Part shown: one piece after another, positions 4,552 through 30,783 of the stretch
Layout of the letters: each line of letters starts with the position of its first letter
Numbering within the stretch: position 1 is the stretch's first letter
IMG/VR virus record: IMGVR_UViG_3300044712_000991
Span: 130,279-194,278 of that record
Strand: one strand, 5' to 3'
Source: a virus
DNA length: 64,000 nucleotides
Notes under the pieces: model-generated
Told to the model about the DNA's origin: nothing
The model's input: only the letters and a program-made list of their open reading frames with translations
Databases searched by the model: none
Made by a program: the position numbers and the translations under genes

Positions 4552-4780
4552 CGTCAGCGTGTTCCAGGATGAGGATAACGGTCGCCACATTCTGTGTGAC
4601 CATCTGCGTGATACGCCACCCACGACTTATCATGTTCTCCACCTCGACCCACGACATATGTGGTTTGAAGGTGCCCGAAGGATCGTACGCCTTGTTGTAC
4701 TCCGCCATTGTGTGGTAGAAGTCGTCAGGGCCATTCGGACCGATTATGTGTGGAAACACAATCATCTGTCGGTATTGCAT
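4544..4780 (-). CDS. Hypothetical protein
   Basis: MQYRQMIVFPH...; tightly packed in the operon. Confidence 0.55.
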   Translation of the reverse strand: MQYRQMIVFPHIIGPNGPDDFYHTMAEYNKAYDPSGTFKPHMSWVEVENMISRGWRITQMVTQNVATVILILEHADDE

Positions 4781-4784
4781 GCGG

Positions 4785-5090
4785 TCATCCCTTCTTCGGC
4801 TGTGCGGGAGCACCGCTCGCAAGCAGGGCTTCCTGGACGAAACTCACCTTGTCCAACGCCGGGGCGTGACGGTCGTACACAGCGACCATCTTGCGCATAC
4901 CCTTCACGGCCTCTTCGAGTTCAGCGGCGGTCGCCTTGTGCGCATCTCCCACCGCCTGGGTCTCCTTGTCGATCAGTTCGCCGTACTTCCGCCGGATGGT
5001 CGCGACCTTGTCCTGGGCGTCCTTGTACGAGGCTTCGATACGCTTCTCGAACTCATCAATCTGCTGTTCGAGCATCTGCTTCATTGTCAT
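4785..5090 (-). CDS. Coiled-coil hypothetical protein
   Basis: Heptad-like charged helix; start overlaps upstream stop. Confidence 0.65.
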   Translation of the reverse strand: MTMKQMLEQQIDEFEKRIEASYKDAQDKVATIRRKYGELIDKETQAVGDAHKATAAELEEAVKGMRKMVAVYDRHAPALDKVSFVQEALLASGAPAQPKKG

Positions 5091-5419
5091 CAGGGTGTTC
5101 CTTTCTTGATTATGTGTGCGAGTTTACGATTTGCCTTCTGCTCGGCACGGAGGTCGCGCTCGACCTTGTCCGCGAGTTCCGTGTGGAGCTCTTTGAGGAT
5201 CAACTCTGCGTGGCGACGGATACGGTCAGCGGCTACTCCTGCGTACGCATCCTTGAGAACGAGGCGCGGGACGAGCATCGCCTTCGTACACTTGAACATC
5301 GTATGACACTCCTCGCACCAACAGTCTTCCCGGAAGCCCTCGGACTCCGTGGACAGACCGCTCACGCGGTACAGGGGCTCCCCGCATTTGGGGCACAACA
5401 TCTCGCTATTGCTTGCCAT
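5090..5419 (-). CDS. Zinc-ribbon hypothetical protein
   Basis: CPKCG...CEECH; downstream of promoter 5443-5471. Confidence 0.65.
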   Translation of the reverse strand: MASNSEMLCPKCGEPLYRVSGLSTESEGFREDCWCEECHTMFKCTKAMLVPRLVLKDAYAGVAADRIRRHAELILKELHTELADKVERDLRAEQKANRKLAHIIKKGTP

Positions 5420-5442
5420 GGGATGTAGTCCTTTCGTGGTCA

Positions 5443-5471
5443 AAGATACGCAAATCAAAGAAGAAAAGCAA
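5443..5471 (-). promoter_or_regulatory. sigma70-type promoter TTGCTT-N17-TATCTT
   Basis: 17-bp spacing, same architecture as the other early promoters. Confidence 0.55.
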
Positions 5472-5504
5472 ATCGCGCTGAGTAAAATTACTCAACGCAT
5501 TGAG

Positions 5505-5532
5505 TAAAACAAATCGGGGGCTTGCGCCCCCG
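5505..5532 (-). terminator. Intrinsic terminator after the RAMP-like gene
   Basis: CGGGGGC-GCAA-GCCCCCG hairpin followed by ATTTGTTTT. Confidence 0.75.
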
Positions 5533-5544
5533 AAGAAATGATGA

Positions 5545-6144
5545 CTACTTCACGGCTTTCACGGACTCCACCGTGAACCGCCCGTGCTCGGGACGCCAGT
5601 CGCACAGACCGATCTCCCGCCCTGCGACCTCCACGAACTTCTTGATTGAGGCTTCATCCACGAGGTCGGGCATGAAGGTCACGGTGAACGTGAGCCCCCA
5701 CCGTTTGAACTCGGGGCGGGTGCGCATCACGCTCGACTGCCCGATCTTGACAGCCACGCGGGACATGTTCATCCCTTCCGCGTACAGCTTCTTGATGTCC
5801 TTCGGACCATCGTAGTCCAGGAGGTTGTCCTCGTAGATGCCGAGGGCGGACTTCGCGGTCGGTCCCTGTTTTGACCGCTTGGCGGCGTTCACAATCATCG
5901 CCTTCAGGACATACCCCGGGATGATGATTTGGTTCTTGGTGTTGAGGTACAGGCTAGCGAAGAACTCGATCCGCGCCATCTCCTCGTGGTCGTCATCCGT
6001 CTTCTGCTTCTTGCCCGAAACGGACTTGAGCTCCTTGGATGCCTTGGACAGCGGGTCTTTCAGCGCCACGCCGTTGTGCATGATGAGACTGTCCACACCT
6101 TCGATAACGAACTGCAATTTGCGAAGACCATTTTCGGTGGCCAT
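5545..6144 (-). CDS. RAMP/Cas7-like phage protein, putative effector for the adjacent pentamer array (Vipr-like)
   Basis: AGGAG SD; beta1 LQFVIEGVDSLIMHN, IPGYVLKAMIVNAAK (RAMP IPG-x-x-[LI]-K motif), C-terminal Gly loop GREIGLCDWRPEHGRFTV. Confidence 0.7.
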   Translation of the reverse strand: MATENGLRKLQFVIEGVDSLIMHNGVALKDPLSKASKELKSVSGKKQKTDDDHEEMARIEFFASLYLNTKNQIIIPGYVLKAMIVNAAKRSKQGPTAKSALGIYEDNLLDYDGPKDIKKLYAEGMNMSRVAVKIGQSSVMRTRPEFKRWGLTFTVTFMPDLVDEASIKKFVEVAGREIGLCDWRPEHGRFTVESVKAVK

Positions 6145-6275
6145 GATTTGTTTCTCCTGTATGTGCATGTTGAACTTTGTAGGCAGTCCAACGAGGCCTG
6201 TTGATGCTCTACTACTGACATCTACCTCTCCAATTCACACGCTACCTCACCTCAACCGCGCCTTAAGTGTACCAC

Positions 6276-6304
6276 AAGATACAAAATGAATTCTCGATTG
6301 TCAA
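6276..6304 (-). promoter_or_regulatory. sigma70 promoter TTGACA-N17-TATCTT for the RAMP-like gene
   Basis: -35 at 6299-6304, -10 at 6276-6281. Confidence 0.75.
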
Positions 6305-6330: not shown

Positions 6331-6732
6331 GTACCTAATGACCGTACCAGACTCTACCTAACCCATCCGTGACCATCCAGACCCTACCCTGCCGAACCCA
6401 TTGTACCTAATGACCACACCAGACCTCTCCACGACAGACCGAGACTTGCCTCGCCTTGCCGTTCCGTACCGCTCCAGAACAGACCAAAAGTACCTAATGA
6501 CCGTACCAATGCCCACCAAACCTTTCCCCTCCCAAACCAAACATGCCTTACCGGAACGACCCTTACCATATTCAAAACGTTTTTACTTAATATCCTTACC
6601 AGACCATTACAAAACTTGCCGATCCACTCCTATCCAGACCAATCCTCACCGTTTGTACCTAATGACCACACCGAATCCTACCGCGCCTTTCCTTGCCGAA
6701 CCCAGACCTAACACATCGCTCCGATCCCAACC
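6331..6732 (-). repeat. Non-coding array of five units, each 12-15 GGH-NN pentamers closed by GGTCA-TTAGGTAC (putative guide-RNA array)
   Basis: Manual phasing: 66/67 pentamers start with G, 52/67 with GG, third base G only once; TTAGGTAC at 6662-6655, 6497-6490, 6410-6403, 6338-6331 and variant TTAAGTAA at 6590-6583. Confidence 0.9.
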
Positions 6733-7017
6733 TTATTTTGAAACGCTCTTTGCCCTCATCGTCGCCCCCTGCGTCCGCACGGGACACACATGGATGTCCG
6801 CTCTCTCAATCGCTCGCAGACCACCCTGCACGCGCTGCACAGGTGTGGGGATCACTTGCGACCTCTGAGGACGATGTACATGCGTGTGTGTACGCGCTTC
6901 TACAGGGCTCACGAGGATCACGCTCTTGCGGTACTTCCGCACCTCCTGGTACGCTTCCCGCGCAGAAAAAGATAGTGCGGGAATCACCTGGTTGGAGCAC
7001 CGCGTCGTGCACCGCAT
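6733..7017 (-). CDS. Hypothetical protein; its stop abuts the array
   Basis: MRCTTRCSNQVIP...SVSK*, follows the 7032 stop; weak SD. Confidence 0.4.
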   Translation of the reverse strand: MRCTTRCSNQVIPALSFSAREAYQEVRKYRKSVILVSPVEARTHTHVHRPQRSQVIPTPVQRVQGGLRAIERADIHVCPVRTQGATMRAKSVSK

Positions 7018-7031
7018 TATCTTGCCTAGTT

Positions 7032-7841
7032 TCACAGGCGATGCTCCGTAGGGAACTGCGCCTTGATCCTGAATAGATGGGGTTGCCACGAGTACGACCC
7101 ATCGGGCTCCACATCGAACGCCACGGCACCGAAGTGCAGAAGGCCTGAACATCTGCGTCCCCCGTATTTCGACCCCGCTGCTTGGAGCGCAGGGAGGGTC
7201 ATCGCCACGGCCATCCTGTCCTTGATGGGGAAGTACGCCGCCCCATGGTAGTGCACGTGCGATCTGCACAGGATGTCCGCCCGAGGAGCTTCACCAGCCA
7301 CGAACTCGAAGAGATTCCACATCAGTTCCTTCATCACGGGCGTGAGCCTCGTGTGGGGCAACGAGGAGTTGCCTACATGGTGTTTGAAGTTGAACTTCAG
7401 CCCGTTCACATCCAGACGAACAACATCCTCCGCCGTGGCATTGAATGCCTTGGTCATCGTGGACTCGAAGTCCTCCGCATCTCCCACATGGTACCCTGTA
7501 CCGTAGGCGAAGAAGTGCTGTTTGGCACGCGCTTGCCGGATGCACACACTCGCAATCTCTGCCTGTTTGAGTCTATCTGTCGTGATCTGCTCGGTTCCAC
7601 CGCTACGCATACCTTGACCATCGATGGCATCCCCGTTGACCACGAGAGCATCGATGGGTTGCAGGTCATCCATAGTGACCACATACTTGTCCCACAGTTC
7701 GCGCCGGATGTTGTACACCTTGCGACCACCGAGGGCTTTTCCAGGATCGAACTGCGGTGGGGTGAGCCCCACGATGTGTCCGCAGTGCATGTCGCCAATG
7801 ACAACGATGCGTTTGGTCTTCCGTTCTGTCGCTACCGCCAT
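7032..7841 (-). CDS. Calcineurin-like metallophosphoesterase
   Basis: GDMHCGH, NGDAIDG, GTGYH, FKHH, RSHVH motifs. Confidence 0.85.
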   Translation of the reverse strand: MAVATERKTKRIVVIGDMHCGHIVGLTPPQFDPGKALGGRKVYNIRRELWDKYVVTMDDLQPIDALVVNGDAIDGQGMRSGGTEQITTDRLKQAEIASVCIRQARAKQHFFAYGTGYHVGDAEDFESTMTKAFNATAEDVVRLDVNGLKFNFKHHVGNSSLPHTRLTPVMKELMWNLFEFVAGEAPRADILCRSHVHYHGAAYFPIKDRMAVAMTLPALQAAGSKYGGRRCSGLLHFGAVAFDVEPDGSYSWQPHLFRIKAQFPTEHRL

Positions 7842-24143: not shown

Positions 24144-24409
24144 GGTGTGCCTCCCGTTGTAGGTGGTAATTCCACGGTGACCTGCCTCTCGAACTTGTTG
24201 CATACGCCGTTCGGGTCTACGGGCATGGTGGTCACTTTTGAGCGTGCTCCAACAACCCATGTCCACTCGAATGTCACACGCTGACACTCGTATGATCCTT
24301 CCCTATCATCCCACACATGGGCGCACACCGCACATGTGTTGACTTCATGGTACCCATCGGCTGCCACGAGCAAGGCTTTCGCCTTCTGCTTCTCTTCTTC
24401 ATAATCCAT
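24140..24409 (-). CDS. 4-Cys small protein, tandem paralog 1
   Basis: MDYEEEKQKAKA...CAVC...YECQRVTFEW...PVDPNGVCNKF. Confidence 0.7.
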   Translation of the reverse strand: MDYEEEKQKAKALLVAADGYHEVNTCAVCAHVWDDREGSYECQRVTFEWTWVVGARSKVTTMPVDPNGVCNKFERQVTVELPPTTGGTP

Positions 24410-25817
24410 TGCGCACCTCCTCCTCCTTGTCGAGTACTTCGCGCATCGTGTGCAGGAAGACCATCGCACACGCGGGAACTATGGCGTTCCCGATGGCTTT
24501 GACTTGGGCTTGCCTTTCAGGTATTCCCTTACCCACGCGGATAAGAAGTTCCCTGTCGGCCACGTCCATCCCAACGGGTAGCCCATCAGCCAGCACTCCC
24601 ATACGGGGTTCAACTGCCCACCAATCGGCGGTCGTGTAGCCCCCGCCTCCTGTGGCGCACTCCCCACCGCATCCCTCAACTTGACACCCCACCGCGTGCC
24701 TTCCCGATTCTCCCTGTACCATCCATGACCATCGTTGGTCGCCCTCACCGCTCCACCTTCGGCATCCGATGCCCTCGGGGTCGGCCACGGAGTCTGATCG
24801 ACCGTCGTGAGCGCTACGGTGTCCGCGAGGTTCAGGCTGTGCGAGTTCTGACCGTTCTTGGTCAGCCTCCTCCCCGTGGGGCTCAGCACCGCATCGGGGT
24901 GCTCCACTTCCTGCGCCGTTGGGGTCGGCCACTGCACCTGCTCCGCCAAGCACCCCGGCACCCAGTGCCTCCCGATGGACTCCCTGTAGGCCTTCCTGCG
25001 CTCGTACCTCCCCGGTCCCCCCGCAATCTCCACCACAGTCGGTGTCAGCCACAGCCTCTCGATCACCAGGGCCATCGTGGTCAGCGACAACCGTGTGGGT
25101 CGCACCACAGGCACAGGAGTGTCCGTGAGGATCAGTTCCTCGGGGGATGGCGTACGCCCCACTCTGAATCTCTCCGAGCGCACCGCCTCCGTCGCCCTCG
25201 GTGTCCCCACCCAGACGTTCACTATCGGTCCCCTGCGAGACCAACGCTTCCCACCAGTCGTCGGGGAGTCCCCGGGTGCCCGTGGGGTTGCACACGATCC
25301 AGATGCGGTCTCGTTTGTGGGGAGCTCCAAGCTGCCACGCGCCGAAACGATGCCATTCCGCATCGTACCCGATTTCGGCCAAGTCAGTGAGGACTCGCTT
25401 GAAGAACTGCCCTTTTTCGGACGTGAGGAGCCCAGGGACATTTTCAAACAGCGCCCAACGGGGTCGTACGTTGCTAAGGGCTCGGACGCACTCACTCCAG
25501 AGATCACGCGTGTCTTCCGAGGCTTTGCGCTTGCCCGCGAGCGAGTGGGGCTGGCAGGGGAAGCCCCCTGTGATGAGGTTGATTCCGTCGAACCGTTCTT
25601 CGGTCCAGTCGATTTTCGTGATGTCGCCAAGGCAGATGCTCCCAGGAAAGTTTCGGTGATAGATAGAACACGAGAACTCTTCGATGTCCGCGTGAGCCAC
25701 GTTACAGTAGCGCTCTCCCCACACAGCACGGGCGGCCACAGAGAAGCCTCCAATGCCCGAGAAGAGGTCGAGGTGTTTGATCCGGTCATCCACAATCGGC
25801 AGAGGTGTGAGCATCAT
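24399..25817 (-). CDS. C5 DNA cytosine methyltransferase, alpha chain (motifs I-VIII and X)
   Basis: DLFSGIGG, GGFPCQ, FENVPG, HKRDRIWIV, VKAIGNAIVP. Confidence 0.9.
   Translation of the reverse strand: MMLTPLPIVDDRIKHLDLFSGIGGFSVAARAVWGERYCNVAHADIEEFSCSIYHRNFPGSICLGDITKIDWTEERFDGINLITGGFPCQPHSLAGKRKASEDTRDLWSECVRALSNVRPRWALFENVPGLLTSEKGQFFKRVLTDLAEIGYDAEWHRFGAWQLGAPHKRDRIWIVCNPTGTRGLPDDWWEALVSQGTDSERLGGDTEGDGGGALGEIQSGAYAIPRGTDPHGHSCACGATHTVVADHDGPGDREAVADTDCGGDCGGTGEVRAQEGLQGVHREALGAGVLGGAGAVADPNGAGSGAPRCGAEPHGEEADQERSELAQPEPRGHRSAHDGRSDSVADPEGIGCRRWSGEGDQRWSWMVQGESGRHAVGCQVEGCGGECATGGGGYTTADWWAVEPRMGVLADGLPVGMDVADRELLIRVGKGIPERQAQVKAIGNAIVPACAMVFLHTMREVLDKEEEVRNGL
24479..25795 (-). CDS. 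Nested alternative-frame ORF: putative MTase beta chain (TRD + motif IX); start uncertain (25363 possible)
   Basis: 438 codons open inside the MTase; WLTPT/WPTPT/WPTPR repeats and GQLNPVWECWLMGYPLGWT. Confidence 0.7.
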   Translation of the reverse strand: MWMTGSNTSTSSRALEASLWPPVLCGESATVTWLTRTSKSSRVLSITETFLGASALATSRKSTGPKNGSTESTSSQGASPASPTRSRASAKPRKTRVISGVSASEPLATYDPVGRCLKMSLGSSRPKKGSSSSESSLTWPKSGTMRNGIVSARGSLELPTNETASGSCATPRAPGDSPTTGGKRWSRRGPIVNVWVGTPRATEAVRSERFRVGRTPSPEELILTDTPVPVVRPTRLSLTTMALVIERLWLTPTVVEIAGGPGRYERRKAYRESIGRHWVPGCLAEQVQWPTPTAQEVEHPDAVLSPTGRRLTKNGQNSHSLNLADTVALTTVDQTPWPTPRASDAEGGAVRATNDGHGWYRENREGTRWGVKLRDAVGSAPQEAGATRPPIGGQLNPVWECWLMGYPLGWTWPTGNFLSAWVREYLKGKPKSKPSGTP

Positions 25818-28357: not shown

Positions 28358-28620
28358 GCGTGCACAATCTCCCCATCGTTAGGAACCGACCCTGTCTGAC
28401 GGTAGAAGTCATACTGCGCTTTCGTTATCTCCTGACAGAACAGTATTGGTGTACTCATGTGACCCGTTGCCCAATCCATGGGATCACTGCTGGTTACAGT
28501 AAACCCCACACTCCACCGGCCATCGCGGGGGCTACGTCCCACAGTAATGTAGTAGTACTTCTCGGCATCCCCTCCCGCCGAGGAGGGTACAGTACGGTTG
28601 GACACTCTCAAGGGGCTCAT
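28354..28620 (-). CDS. Hypothetical protein
   Basis: ATGA overlaps. Confidence 0.55.
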   Translation of the reverse strand: MSPLRVSNRTVPSSAGGDAEKYYYITVGRSPRDGRWSVGFTVTSSDPMDWATGHMSTPILFCQEITKAQYDFYRQTGSVPNDGEIVHA

Positions 28621-29276
28621 GTGGTCTCCTTTTTGAACGCTGTGTTACCGATCTTCAGCAGGGTCACCCGTGGTGCCCACTGCTCGGCCATCGCCCTCGC
28701 GATGCCAGGGAAGGTCTTCGACCTCGCCTTCGCACGTTCTGCGGGCGGGAGTTTCCAGAGGTCGGCGTACCACTTGTCCATCGACTTCCCCGAACCGAAG
28801 ACCACACGCTCCCCTGGCTCGACCACATTTGTGGGCTCCAACAACGGAAGTCCACGGAGCCACAGGCAGGTCTTCTTCGAGTACGGATCACCGAACATGT
28901 ACGGCTGAATCACTTGGTCGGGCTTCCGCCACACCCGGGACATGATGCCCACGGGGTTCTCGATAGCCACTCGGGGGCACTTCGATGGGAGGATGGTCGC
29001 AAAGCGCATAAAGAAGTCCACGCCCTGCTGTTGCCGGCCATCCTTGCGCTTCTGTTCGAACCACGCAGCGCCCGAGACCGCGAGGTGCGTACACGGGGGA
29101 AAGGCGATGATCATATCCCACTGCTGATCGAGCAGGGGGAGGACATCCTGCTCCAAGTGCCACTCGGGGTGCGCCCCCGAGCAGGGGAGAATATCACAGG
29201 AGTACGCTTCATGCCCGAGCGCACGGAGTTCTGTCGTCACCGCCTGAGACTCTTCACACGCAACTAACACCCTCAT
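28617..29276 (-). CDS. Minimal phage C5 DNA methyltransferase (MRVLVACE family)
   Basis: MRVLVACEESQ, AFPPCTHL, VAIENPVG, RSKTFPGIARAMAEQW. Confidence 0.8.
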   Translation of the reverse strand: MRVLVACEESQAVTTELRALGHEAYSCDILPCSGAHPEWHLEQDVLPLLDQQWDMIIAFPPCTHLAVSGAAWFEQKRKDGRQQQGVDFFMRFATILPSKCPRVAIENPVGIMSRVWRKPDQVIQPYMFGDPYSKKTCLWLRGLPLLEPTNVVEPGERVVFGSGKSMDKWYADLWKLPPAERAKARSKTFPGIARAMAEQWAPRVTLLKIGNTAFKKETT

Positions 29277-29299
29277 CTGTCCTCCTAAAAGTTACCCCT

Positions 29300-29328
29300 A
29301 ATATACACACTCCGTTCGTGATTGTCAA
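29300..29328 (-). promoter_or_regulatory. sigma70 promoter TTGACA-N17-TATATT
   Basis: -35 at 29323-29328, -10 at 29300-29305. Confidence 0.8.
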
Positions 29329-29348
29329 CACCCCTTGAAAATAATGTT

Positions 29349-29951
29349 CTACCCCCATTGAGAAGCCATGGCCTTTGCGACACCCTCGAAGGTCTTGCTT
29401 GCTGTTTTCGCATCATGAGCCACGCCTCTACTCCCACCCCGCCCTCTAGCGAAGCCCCCCGTGTTGCTTGGTAAGTACGGTGTGAACTCCTTGACGACCT
29501 TCGTCGGAACAAGGGAGGGCAGTCCTTTGAGCCACAACAGCGTACGTTTTGAATACGGGTGACCAAATTGATACGGCTGTATGACCTGTGTTGGCTCAGG
29601 AAGCCCGATGATCTTCAATGGTGTTGGATTCTCTATGGCCACCCTGGGGCACCCACTACGGTAGAACATCATGAAAAACTCTTTTGCTTCCAACGCTTTT
29701 GCTAGACGCGCCTCATCCACATTCCCTGCCGTGGGGTACATGAACCTCGCGCCCGCCTTGCTCATATACGTGCACGGGGGGTGTGCGATTATCAAGTCCC
29801 ACCCATCATCTAGTACCTTCAGCACGTCGCCCTGTATGTGATTCCCTGGCGTCTCTGTCGGTAGCAGGTCGCAACTCCACGCATCGTGACCACGGGAGGC
29901 AAAGGCATCCCGGACAGCCCCGCTGAACTCACACGCGACGAGGACTCTCAC
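29349..29951 (-). CDS. Minimal phage C5 DNA methyltransferase (MRVLVACE family), paralog
   Basis: MRVLVACEFSG, AHPPCTYM, VAIENPTP, SKTFEGVAKAMASQW. Confidence 0.8.
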   Translation of the reverse strand: MRVLVACEFSGAVRDAFASRGHDAWSCDLLPTETPGNHIQGDVLKVLDDGWDLIIAHPPCTYMSKAGARFMYPTAGNVDEARLAKALEAKEFFMMFYRSGCPRVAIENPTPLKIIGLPEPTQVIQPYQFGHPYSKRTLLWLKGLPSLVPTKVVKEFTPYLPSNTGGFARGRGGSRGVAHDAKTASKTFEGVAKAMASQWG

Positions 29952-30073
29952 CCACCCTCCTCGGGATCAACGATGGGGCGGGTGTGGTACAGCCAGAGCG
30001 CCACGCCAGCACAGAAACTGACGATGCACCCCAAGGAGAACCCACATGCGAACTCAAACCATGGTCCTGGCAT
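29948..30073 (-). CDS. Tiny single-TM protein
   Basis: TAATG overlap; hydrophobic 41 aa. Confidence 0.45.
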   Translation of the reverse strand: MPGPWFEFACGFSLGCIVSFCAGVALWLYHTRPIVDPEEGG

Positions 30074-30729
30074 TAGTCTGCCCTTTCTGTTGGTGGTGTA
30101 CTTGTTTTGGGAAAAAGGTTCTCCATCGCGAGGCACACATCGAGCGCCAACGGATAGGGAATCTTCGCGGAGTCGAACTTGGACATCCCTTGGACTCCCG
30201 TGGTAGACCCACGAGGGGCGCGTACATGGCAGGGGTCTCCGTTGTTGCATGTCGGCTTGAGCACCAAACCCTCGGGGAACCTACCCCACAGGTCGGTGGG
30301 CTTCATCACGTGCTTCCCGTACTGACACTGCGTGACCGTCCGCCGTTCATACTCATCGAGCCACCCCATCTTCCGCAGTTTGGCTCTCGGGTTCTCGATG
30401 ATGAAGTACAGGTTGGGATTGGTCTCCTGGGCGCGTTTGATGATCCACTTCGTGCGCAGGACGAGTTCCTGCCCCAGGATGGCCGTGGCGCTCTTCGGTT
30501 GGTTGTCGTGTGTCCAGTTCTTGGAGATGCTGAGGATGCTGAAGGACTGACATGGGGGTGAGGCGAGAATGATGTCGAACACCCCCCAGTCGTGGGGGTC
30601 GAACGTACGGACATCCCTGTGCTCGGCTGGAAAGCGTTCATCGAGTTCCACGCGCACCACTTCGTGCCCACGGTCTCGAAACGGCTGTGACCACCCTTCT
30701 TTGCCTGAAAACAGATCAAGAACTCTCAC
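30073..30729 (-). CDS. C5 DNA cytosine methyltransferase
   Basis: GTG start with GGAGG; LDLFSG, ASPPCQSFS, IIENPRA, KPTDLW. Confidence 0.82.
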   Translation of the reverse strand: MRVLDLFSGKEGWSQPFRDRGHEVVRVELDERFPAEHRDVRTFDPHDWGVFDIILASPPCQSFSILSISKNWTHDNQPKSATAILGQELVLRTKWIIKRAQETNPNLYFIIENPRAKLRKMGWLDEYERRTVTQCQYGKHVMKPTDLWGRFPEGLVLKPTCNNGDPCHVRAPRGSTTGVQGMSKFDSAKIPYPLALDVCLAMENLFPKTSTPPTERAD

Positions 30730-30754
30730 CCGCCCTCCTTCGTTTTGGTGTACC

Positions 30755-30783
30755 AATATACACAAAGGAAGAGCGAAAGTCAA
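30755..30783 (-). promoter_or_regulatory. sigma70 promoter TTGACT-N17-TATATT
   Basis: -35 at 30778-30783, -10 at 30755-30760. Confidence 0.8.

What the first reader, a model, noticed from the sequence alone, without database searches (positions are those of the whole stretch)
5545..6144. Stand-alone RAMP/Cas7-like gene beside the pentamer array: candidate RNA-guided effector
The 199-aa protein has RAMP hallmarks (N-terminal beta1 with G-x-x-x-L-I-M-H, the IPGxxLK motif, and a C-terminal Gly loop G-L-C-D-W-R-P...GRF). No other cas gene is in the window. It has its own promoter and terminator and lies next to the periodic array. Inference: monomers polymerise along the RNA, one per 5-nt unit, gripping the constant GGH and exposing NN. 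This matches my recollection of recently reported viral VIPR systems, which should be verified.
Basis: partly seen in the sequence, partly recalled or inferred. Interest (0 to 1): 0.9.

Follow-up and report, generated by a model that had tools for sequence, protein, structure and literature searches.

The report
Phage VIPR locus: Vipr plus guides
The lone Cas7-like gene and the five-letter-repeat array next to it are a genuine example of VIPR, a phage RNA-guided DNA-silencing system first described in 2026 preprints. It is real and correctly read, but it is a new member of a known kind, and what its guides target is still unknown.

Summary

Directly upstream on the same strand, 6735-6331, lie five tracts of 12-15 HNNGG pentamers. 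Position 4 is G in 66 of 67 units, and positions 2-3 vary. Four tracts end in an 11-nt TCATTAGGTAC tail. This is the only such array in the 194-kb phage genome, which has no CRISPR-like array, Cas1 or Pfam RAMP. In 77 related viral loci, all 172 strong tracts lie within 1.5 kb of vipr, 168 of them on its strand.

Local departures are A tolerated at the third scaffold base, a short unstructured tail, no HNH accessory, and a recurrently adjacent metallophosphoesterase gene. No target was found. This scan has noted VIPR-like loci many times on other DNA (282 notes).

The parts
5545..6144 (-). vipr gene: 199-aa Vipr protein, a minimal Cas7-like RAMP
6154..6158 (-). Shine-Dalgarno AGGAG, 9 nt before the ATG at 6144
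   Evidence: Read from the sequence. It supports the 199-aa start over the ATG at 6168.
6276..6304 (-). Sigma-70-like promoter TTGACA-17-TATCTT between the array and vipr
   Evidence: 10 of 12 consensus matches. This is a consensus match only.
5514..5533 (-). Intrinsic-terminator-like hairpin (8 pairs, 7 G-C) plus T-run, 12 nt after the vipr stop
5474..5499 (-). Second terminator-like hairpin
6666..6735 (-). vrRNA candidate 1: 14 pentamers, three degenerate in the middle
   Evidence: score 9.6.
6594..6653 (-). vrRNA candidate 2: 12 pentamers
   Evidence: score 9.8.
6571..6593 (-). Atypical end of vrRNA 2: a 23-nt A/T-rich stretch in place of the common tail. With the next three bases (to 6568) it forms a palindromic hairpin
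   Evidence: Sequence.
6501..6570 (-). vrRNA candidate 3: 14 pentamers
   Evidence: score 9.3.
6414..6488 (-). vrRNA candidate 4: 15 pentamers
   Evidence: score 12.6.
6342..6401 (-). vrRNA candidate 5: 12 pentamers
   Evidence: score 11.0.
6655..6665 (-). Conserved 11-nt tail TCATTAGGTAC after vrRNA 1. Identical copies lie at 6490-6500, 6403-6413 and 6331-6341
   Evidence: No predicted structure: the tracts fold more weakly than shuffles. No Rfam match.
6490..6500 (-). Tail copy after vrRNA 3
6403..6413 (-). Tail copy after vrRNA 4
6331..6341 (-). Tail copy after vrRNA 5
7032..7841 (-). Candidate accessory gene: a 269-aa calcineurin-like metallophosphoesterase directly upstream of the array. 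Its link to VIPR is not proven
   Evidence: Weak Pfam Metallophos match. The AF2 model has pLDDT 93.8 and an MPP fold, with PolD DP1 exonuclease, LpxH and Mre11 as top matches. Homologues flank vipr or its arrays in L003, L012 and L051 and in 5 of 80 further homologue loci.

Best explanation
This is a VIPR (Viral Interference Programmable Repeat) locus of a 194-kb phage.

Shown here:
- The 199-aa protein is a Vipr, a single-RRM Cas7-like RAMP.
- The upstream same-strand array encodes five candidate guide RNAs (vrRNAs) of about 70-90 nt.
- Each guide is 12-15 pentamers of the form H-N-N-G-G, and four of the five end in an 11-nt tail.

Inferred by homology with the SUSP1 system:
- Vipr protomers polymerise along each vrRNA, one per pentamer.
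- Adjacent protomers hold the two guanines and the following base. The candidate residues are H23, R143, D182, W183 and R184.
- The two variable bases are left exposed. They pair with double-stranded DNA that carries the same dinucleotides separated by one skipped base (NNxNNx...).
- The bound filament blocks transcription of a competing mobile element.

The targets of these five guides are not known. The vipr gene has its own sigma-70-like promoter. The array has no recognisable promoter or terminator of its own, so it is probably transcribed from upstream and then cut at or near the tails (inference).
For: - Homology: PDB 36pp_D SUSP1 Vipr matches at E 6.9e-20 over almost the full length.
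- Functional residues: in that alignment SUSP1 H17, K33, R138, D177, W178 and R179 (roles described) correspond to H23, K40, R143, D182, W183 and R184 here. These are invariant or nearly so in the family.
- Array: five tracts score far above shuffles. G is at position 4 in 66 of 67 units and at position 5 in 53 of 67. Position 1 is T 36, A 18, C 12, G 1. Positions 2-3 are mixed.
- The array is the only one in the 194-kb genome.
- Co-occurrence: 69 of 77 related viral loci have tracts. All 172 tracts scoring at least 9 lie within 1.5 kb of vipr, and 168 are on its strand.
- Viral context: the record is an IMG/VR virus, CheckV 100% complete, and the neighbours are phage genes.
- No CRISPR array, Cas1 or Pfam RAMP in the genome.
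Against: - Nothing is known about expression, processing or binding for this locus.
- No natural target was found in the phage itself, in 79 related VIPR loci, in two related phage genomes, or with exact 9-11-unit seeds in the viral, metagenome and genome collections.
- 14 of 67 units lack a full GG, and 19 of 67 have a purine at position 1, where SUSP1 Vipr excludes purines.
- The tail is only 11 nt with no predicted structure, unlike the roughly 40-nt pseudoknot tail of SUSP1.
- One of the five guides lacks the tail.
- No promoter was detected for the array.
Confidence: 0.88

Rival explanations
1. The locus is a VIPR variant that destroys its targets rather than only silencing them. In this reading the adjacent 269-aa metallophosphoesterase (7032-7841, -) is a dedicated accessory nuclease recruited by the Vipr-vrRNA filament. 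It would take the place of the HNH protein that most relatives carry.
For: - 54 of 79 related loci have an HNH ORF (PF01844) directly upstream of vipr. This genome has none.
- Among the HNH-less loci, the metallophosphoesterase family flanks vipr or its arrays on the same strand in the window, L003, L012 and L051.
- These Viprs are not one clade: the tree needs at least 2 changes of this label.
- In the related phage G001 the vipr module sits elsewhere in the genome, yet the enzyme gene is still next to it.
- 5 of 80 further homologue loci have a divergent Vipr immediately adjacent, and 4 of those have arrays.
- The metal-ligand motifs are invariant in the family. The fold is nearest to the PolD DP1 exonuclease, LpxH and Mre11.
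Against: - The family is large, with more than 340 homologues. 75 of 80 sampled loci, plus L081 and L082, have no vipr within 3.5-4 kb, so it is not a dedicated partner.
- The fold does not separate nucleases from other phosphodiesterases.
- No phosphoesterase is mentioned in the text of the VIPR paper that I could read.
Confidence: 0.3
2. The locus is a decaying or orphaned VIPR remnant. The protein or the guides no longer work, and the degenerate pentamers and odd tails reflect erosion.
For: - 14 of 67 units lack GG.
- vrRNA 1 has three consecutive degenerate units.
- vrRNA 2 has lost the common tail.
- No targets were found.
Against: - The ORF is intact and full length, and every tested RNA-contact residue is conserved.
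- Position 4 is G in 66 of 67 units.
- Four tails are identical over 11 nt.
- The promoter, ribosome-binding site and terminators are in place.
- The VIPR authors themselves describe frequent internal degeneracy of vrRNAs.
Confidence: 0.07
3. The array is not a guide-RNA gene. It could be a G-rich DNA or RNA element, for example two-tier G-quadruplexes. It could instead be part of the plus-strand ORF 6401-6868. In either case the RAMP-like protein would act on something else.
For: - GG every 5 nt could in principle form G-quadruplexes.
- A 155-aa plus-strand ORF spans the region.
Against: - A 5-nt period cannot be a coding period. The plus-strand ORF has GC3 0.55, against 0.7-0.8 in neighbouring genes.
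- The tight, strand-specific linkage of such tracts to vipr in 69 of 77 loci, and the published co-purification of vrRNA with Vipr, explain the array better.
Confidence: 0.03

Closest known systems
Type II VIPR of Escherichia phage SUSP1 (Vipr, vap1 and vrRNAs; bioRxiv 10.64898/2026.04.26.720920, .720927 and 10.64898/2026.10.15.759431; PDB 36pp)
   Same: - A roughly 200-aa single-RRM RAMP, homologous over its full length (E 6.9e-20, about 31% identity to Felix O1-type phage copies).
- The same residues for the two guanines and the target backbone.
- Guides of 12-15 pentamers with fixed GG plus one base and variable NN, on the vipr strand.
- Phage-borne, with no CRISPR array and no self-targeting.
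   Different: - The third scaffold base is H (T 54%, A 27%, C 18%) rather than strictly Y.
- The pyrimidine-pocket residues E71, M72 and C173 are Y78, V79 and I178 here.
- The tail is an 11-nt unstructured motif, not a roughly 40-nt pseudoknot.
- All five guides lie upstream of vipr as a compact array.
- No vap1-like gene follows vipr.
HNH-associated VIPR loci of uncultured viruses (L004-L069 here). These probably correspond to one of the nuclease-bearing types (III-V) of the VIPR paper, but the type could not be assigned
   Same: - Vipr 38-49% identical.
- Compact arrays with short separators of 2-8 nt in several loci.
   Different: - Those loci carry a small HNH gene (PF01844) that overlaps the start of vipr. 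This phage has none anywhere.
- The window's Vipr and L003 form a separate, well-supported pair outside that clade.
IMG/VR contig UViG_3300033233_000004 (L003/G001), a 171.8-kb phage
   Same: - The closest Vipr, 63% identical.
- A related phage: 132 of 498 ORFs are shared.
- The same gene order: metallophosphoesterase, then array, then vipr.
   Different: - Its guides flank vipr on both sides and use many G-T units.
- They end in roughly 45-nt hairpin tails with covarying stems around a GCTCTAAAGGTG loop.
- The module lies at a different place in the genome.
Csm3/Cmr4 (Cas7) backbone subunits of type III CRISPR effectors
   Different: - Only 12-18% identity, and no Pfam RAMP match.
- A 5-nt rather than 6-nt register.
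- No other Cas subunits, no CRISPR repeats and no Cas1.

Membership tests
VIPR system | A Vipr protein homologous to described Viprs | tested here: met
   phmmer against PDB finds 36pp_D 'SUSP1 Vipr protein' at E 6.9e-20, query 11-194 against chain 5-189 of 202. tblastn hits Felix O1-type, Pseudomonas, Gordonia and Mycobacterium phages.
VIPR system | Residues that bind the GG of each repeat and the target backbone (SUSP1 H17, R138, D177, W178, R179, K33) | tested here: met
   They align to H23, R143, D182, W183, R184 and K40 and are conserved across the family.
VIPR system | Pyrimidine-specific pocket for the third scaffold base (SUSP1 E71, M72, C173) | tested here: not met
   The aligned residues are Y78, V79 and I178. 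Position 1 of the units is A in 18 of 67 and G in 1. Relatives range from strict C/T to strict A. The authors allow 'a related consensus', so this changes the variant, not the membership.
VIPR system | vrRNA gene(s): at least 4, typically 9-16, tandem YNNGG units next to vipr on the same strand | tested here: met
   Five tracts of 12-15 units at 6735-6342 (-), scoring 9.3-12.6, against 6.2 or less in 19 of 20 shuffles and 8.5 in one.
VIPR system | An invariant 3' tail after the repeat tract | tested here: inconclusive
   An identical 11-nt TCATTAGGTAC follows 4 of 5 tracts. It is short and has no predicted structure. The published tail is about 40 nt with a pseudoknot in the SUSP1 clade only.
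VIPR system | A non-CRISPR context: no CRISPR array and no other cas genes | tested here: met
   No spaced repeats other than the vrRNA tails and one 23-nt tandem repeat. No PF03787 or PF01867 match in the 194-kb record. Other cas families were not searched.
VIPR system | An accessory vap gene | tested here: inconclusive
   No HNH homologue in the genome. No neighbour other than the metallophosphoesterase is shared with related loci. That enzyme is a candidate only.
VIPR system | Guides do not match their own genome under the 1-nt skip rule | tested here: met
   The best NN match is 17-21 of 24-30 positions, the same as for the 0- and 2-nt skip spacings.
VIPR system | vrRNAs are expressed, bound by Vipr and direct dsDNA binding | not testable with these tools
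   This needs small-RNA sequencing, pull-down and binding assays.
CRISPR-Cas class 1 effector (Cas7/Csm3) | A CRISPR repeat-spacer array and partner Cas subunits | tested here: not met
   The protein has the fold but not the system.

The most novel reading that the evidence does not exclude
The locus, together with L003, L012, L051 and several more divergent loci, may represent a VIPR subtype. In it a calcineurin-like metallophosphoesterase would be the recruited effector in place of HNH. It would be paired with a Vipr whose scaffold pocket accepts A as well as pyrimidines, and with compact arrays that have short unstructured tails. That would add a new enzymatic output to VIPR and a relaxed repeat code.
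Probability: 0.25. Interest if true: 0.5.

Novelty: new member of a known kind. Interest (0 to 1): 0.3.

Why it matters
VIPR is a very recent class, and only a few systems have been tested at the bench. This locus adds a clean, complete example from a large uncultured phage.

It shows within one family how much the parts can vary while the guanine-binding residues stay fixed: the third scaffold base, the tail and the accessory gene. The recurrent metallophosphoesterase neighbour is a testable lead to a new accessory activity.

It does not change the picture of how VIPR works. The biologically interesting question, what this phage silences, remains open.

Tried and rejected
**Target hunt under the published 1-nt skip rule.** Nothing was found beyond chance.
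- Own 194-kb genome: best NN match at most 71%, no better than for the 0- and 2-nt skip spacings.
- 79 related VIPR loci plus two VIPR-free control loci: within the shuffled-guide null.
- 169 guides from relatives scanned against this genome: only short guides reach 0.8, as chance predicts.
- Whole genomes of related phages G001 and G003: within the null.
- Exact 9-11-unit seeds with no match: vr5, vr4, vr1 and vr3 in viral contigs; vr4 in metagenomes; vr4 in genome contigs.
- vr2 in metagenomes gave 4 hits. They lie in unrelated, lower-GC contigs (GC 36-47%), and at most 1 of the 4 next informative bases matched.
- vr5 in genome contigs gave 3 hits in unrelated taxa, again without extension. 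About one hit is expected by chance.
- Collection scans accept exact patterns only, so targets with 80-95% NN match would have been missed.
- Reading the guides as degenerate codon strings by hand gave no motif I could recognise. This was not pursued.

**Other checks that gave nothing.**
- Rfam has no match in the array or in seven related loci, hammerhead ribozymes included.
- Tandem Repeats Finder does not see the array.
- Pfam has no model for the protein.
- The 122-aa zinc-ribbon-like gene downstream of vipr (5090-5458) is not shared with any related locus, so I rejected it as a vap.
- The VIPR type (I-VII) could not be assigned. The paper's supplementary tables are not held.

Full report
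**What is there**

The window is the last 64 kb of a 194,278-bp IMG/VR virus record that CheckV rates complete. The neighbours are phage genes:
- a DnaQ-like exonuclease and a PHROG 631 protein;
- a Dda-like helicase and several DNA methyltransferases.

The ORF at 5545-6144 (-) gives 199 aa. An ATG at 6168 would add eight residues. However, AGGAG sits 9 nt before the ATG at 6144, and homologues start at the equivalent Met-Ala.

A TTGACA-17-TATCTT match lies at 6304-6276 (-). Two terminator-like hairpins follow the stop codon.

**What the protein is**

Pfam has nothing for it. PHROG 4652, of unknown function, matches at E 1.5e-45.

A sequence search of the PDB finds 36pp, named 'SUSP1 Vipr protein', at E 6.9e-20 over residues 11-194. 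The cryo-EM preprint assigns these roles to SUSP1 residues:
- H17 and D177 bind the first guanine.
- R138 and W178 bind the second guanine.
- R179 binds the pyrimidine.
- K33 contacts the target backbone.

In the alignment these correspond to H23, D182, R143, W183, R184 and K40 here. All are invariant or nearly so in 31 homologues and in most of the viral loci tabulated. By contrast, the residues that shape the pyrimidine pocket (E71, M72, C173) are Y78, V79 and I178.

The genome has no Pfam RAMP match, no Cas1 and no CRISPR-like spaced repeats.

**The array**

On the minus strand, five tracts of pentamers lie at these coordinates:

| Guide | Coordinates | Units |
|---|---|---|
| vr1 | 6735-6666 | 14 |
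| vr2 | 6653-6594 | 12 |
| vr3 | 6570-6501 | 14 |
| vr4 | 6488-6414 | 15 |
| vr5 | 6401-6342 | 12 |

They score 9.3-12.6 on a simple NNNGG chain score. Of 20 shuffles of the whole window, 19 scored at most 6.2 and one reached 8.5. They are the only such tracts in the 194-kb genome.

Base composition over the 67 units:
- Position 4 is G in 66 units.
- Position 5 is G in 53 and T in 11.
- Position 1 is T in 36, A in 18, C in 12 and G in 1.
- Positions 2 and 3 are mixed.

Four tracts are followed by an identical TCATTAGGTAC. One base later the next tract begins in a new phase. The second tract ends instead in an A/T-rich palindromic stretch. The last two units before each tail are semi-conserved (TCTGG, then T-N-N-G-G in three of five).

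The tracts fold more weakly than their shuffles, and the tail has no predicted structure. Rfam finds nothing. No promoter-like site precedes the array, and no terminator separates it from vipr. Transcription from upstream with later cutting is my inference.

**Linkage elsewhere**

A scan of IMG/VR with a family alignment returned 79 loci. Vipr ORFs were found in 77 of them. Of these, 69 have pentamer tracts, and 56 have tracts scoring at least 9. All 172 such tracts lie within 1.5 kb of vipr, and 168 are on its strand.

Array styles vary:
- Separators of 2-8 nt occur in L017, L041 and L072.
- Hairpin tails of about 45 nt with covarying stems occur in the closest relative, L003.

The first base of the unit also varies. 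Most loci use C/T. L039, L042 and L060 use only A, and L016, L040 and L048 use mostly A.

**Comparison with the literature**

VIPR was reported in April 2026 (10.64898/2026.04.26.720920), with structures in 10.64898/2026.04.26.720927. Two later preprints followed (10.64898/2026.10.15.759431 and 10.64898/2026.10.21.760802).

The defining features are:
- a minimal RAMP;
- vrRNAs of 9-16 YNNGG units plus a tail;
- one protomer per repeat;
- dsDNA recognition with one skipped base per unit;
- transcriptional silencing of rival elements;
- seven types with different accessory genes.

This locus meets every feature that sequence analysis can test. The exceptions are the strict pyrimidine and the long structured tail. 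The authors themselves report related consensus motifs and several array styles. I therefore file it as a new member of a known kind. I could not assign a type because the supplementary tables are not held.

**Accessory genes**

In 54 of 79 related loci a small HNH gene (Pfam PF01844, above its cut-off) lies directly upstream of vipr. A profile of that family finds nothing in this genome.

The gene directly upstream of the array here (7032-7841, -) is a 269-aa calcineurin-like metallophosphoesterase.
- Its metal-ligand motifs are invariant in 35 homologues.
- Its model (pLDDT 93.8) is closest to the PolD DP1 exonuclease, LpxH and Mre11.

Evidence that links it to VIPR:
- The same family flanks vipr or its arrays in L003, L012 and L051. 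These Viprs do not form one clade.
- The L003 phage shares 132 of 498 ORFs with this one, but carries the module at another genomic position.
- 5 of the 80 best further homologue loci have a divergent Vipr immediately adjacent.

Evidence against a dedicated link:
- The family has more than 340 homologues.
- Most sampled loci lack VIPR.

I rate a functional link at about 0.3.

**Targets**

None were found. The searches are listed under Tried and rejected. The main limit is that public collections could be scanned only for exact patterns.

**Verdict**

The mechanism rests on homology to one well-studied system. Notes from this scan show the same kind of locus recorded many times on other DNA, and this very stretch was also noted from an overlapping window.

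Noticed in passing
window 6207-6266 (-): The predicted vipr leader, downstream of the 6304-6276 promoter, holds a short degenerate run of GG units with spacings of 5, 6, 5, 15 and 5 nt. It also holds TAGTAGAG (6214-6207), the same 8-mer that separates vrRNAs in L072/L073. It could be an eroded sixth guide or a Vipr-binding site for autoregulation. It scores below threshold in my tract scan.
   Followed up: no
window 6568-6593 (-): vrRNA 2 lacks the common tail. It ends in an A/T-rich palindrome (ATATT-AAGT-AAAACGTTTT-G-AATAT).
   Followed up: partly
L003:3600-3930 and 4600-4900 (+): The closest relative (63% Vipr identity) has guides with many G-T units. Its roughly 45-nt tails form hairpins with covarying stems around a conserved GCTCTAAAGGTG loop. 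The tail architecture is thus not conserved even between close Viprs. There is no Rfam match.
   Followed up: partly
L039, L042, L060 (also L016, L040, L048): Related VIPR arrays use A, not a pyrimidine, as the base after GG. A makes up 100% of 54-84 units in the first three loci. Their Viprs carry E-N at the positions equivalent to window residues 78-79.
   Followed up: partly
54 of the 79 related loci L002-L080, for example L004:1898-2317 (+): A small HNH endonuclease gene sits directly upstream of vipr and overlaps its start. It is the commonest accessory in this Vipr family and is absent from this phage.
   Followed up: yes
L140, L141, L143, L144, L147: Divergent Vipr homologues (profile E 1e-8 to 2e-5), with strong pentamer arrays in four of the five loci (all but L141), lie directly beside homologues of the window's metallophosphoesterase.
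   Followed up: partly
window 6740-7031 (-): About 290 nt of G+C-rich non-coding sequence lie between the metallophosphoesterase stop and the first guide. There is no promoter match, no pentamer period and no Rfam hit.
   Followed up: no
   Followed up: no
window 28617-30783 and 24399-25817 (-): Four DNA methyltransferase genes lie within about 6.4 kb (PHROGs 757 and 363).
   Followed up: no
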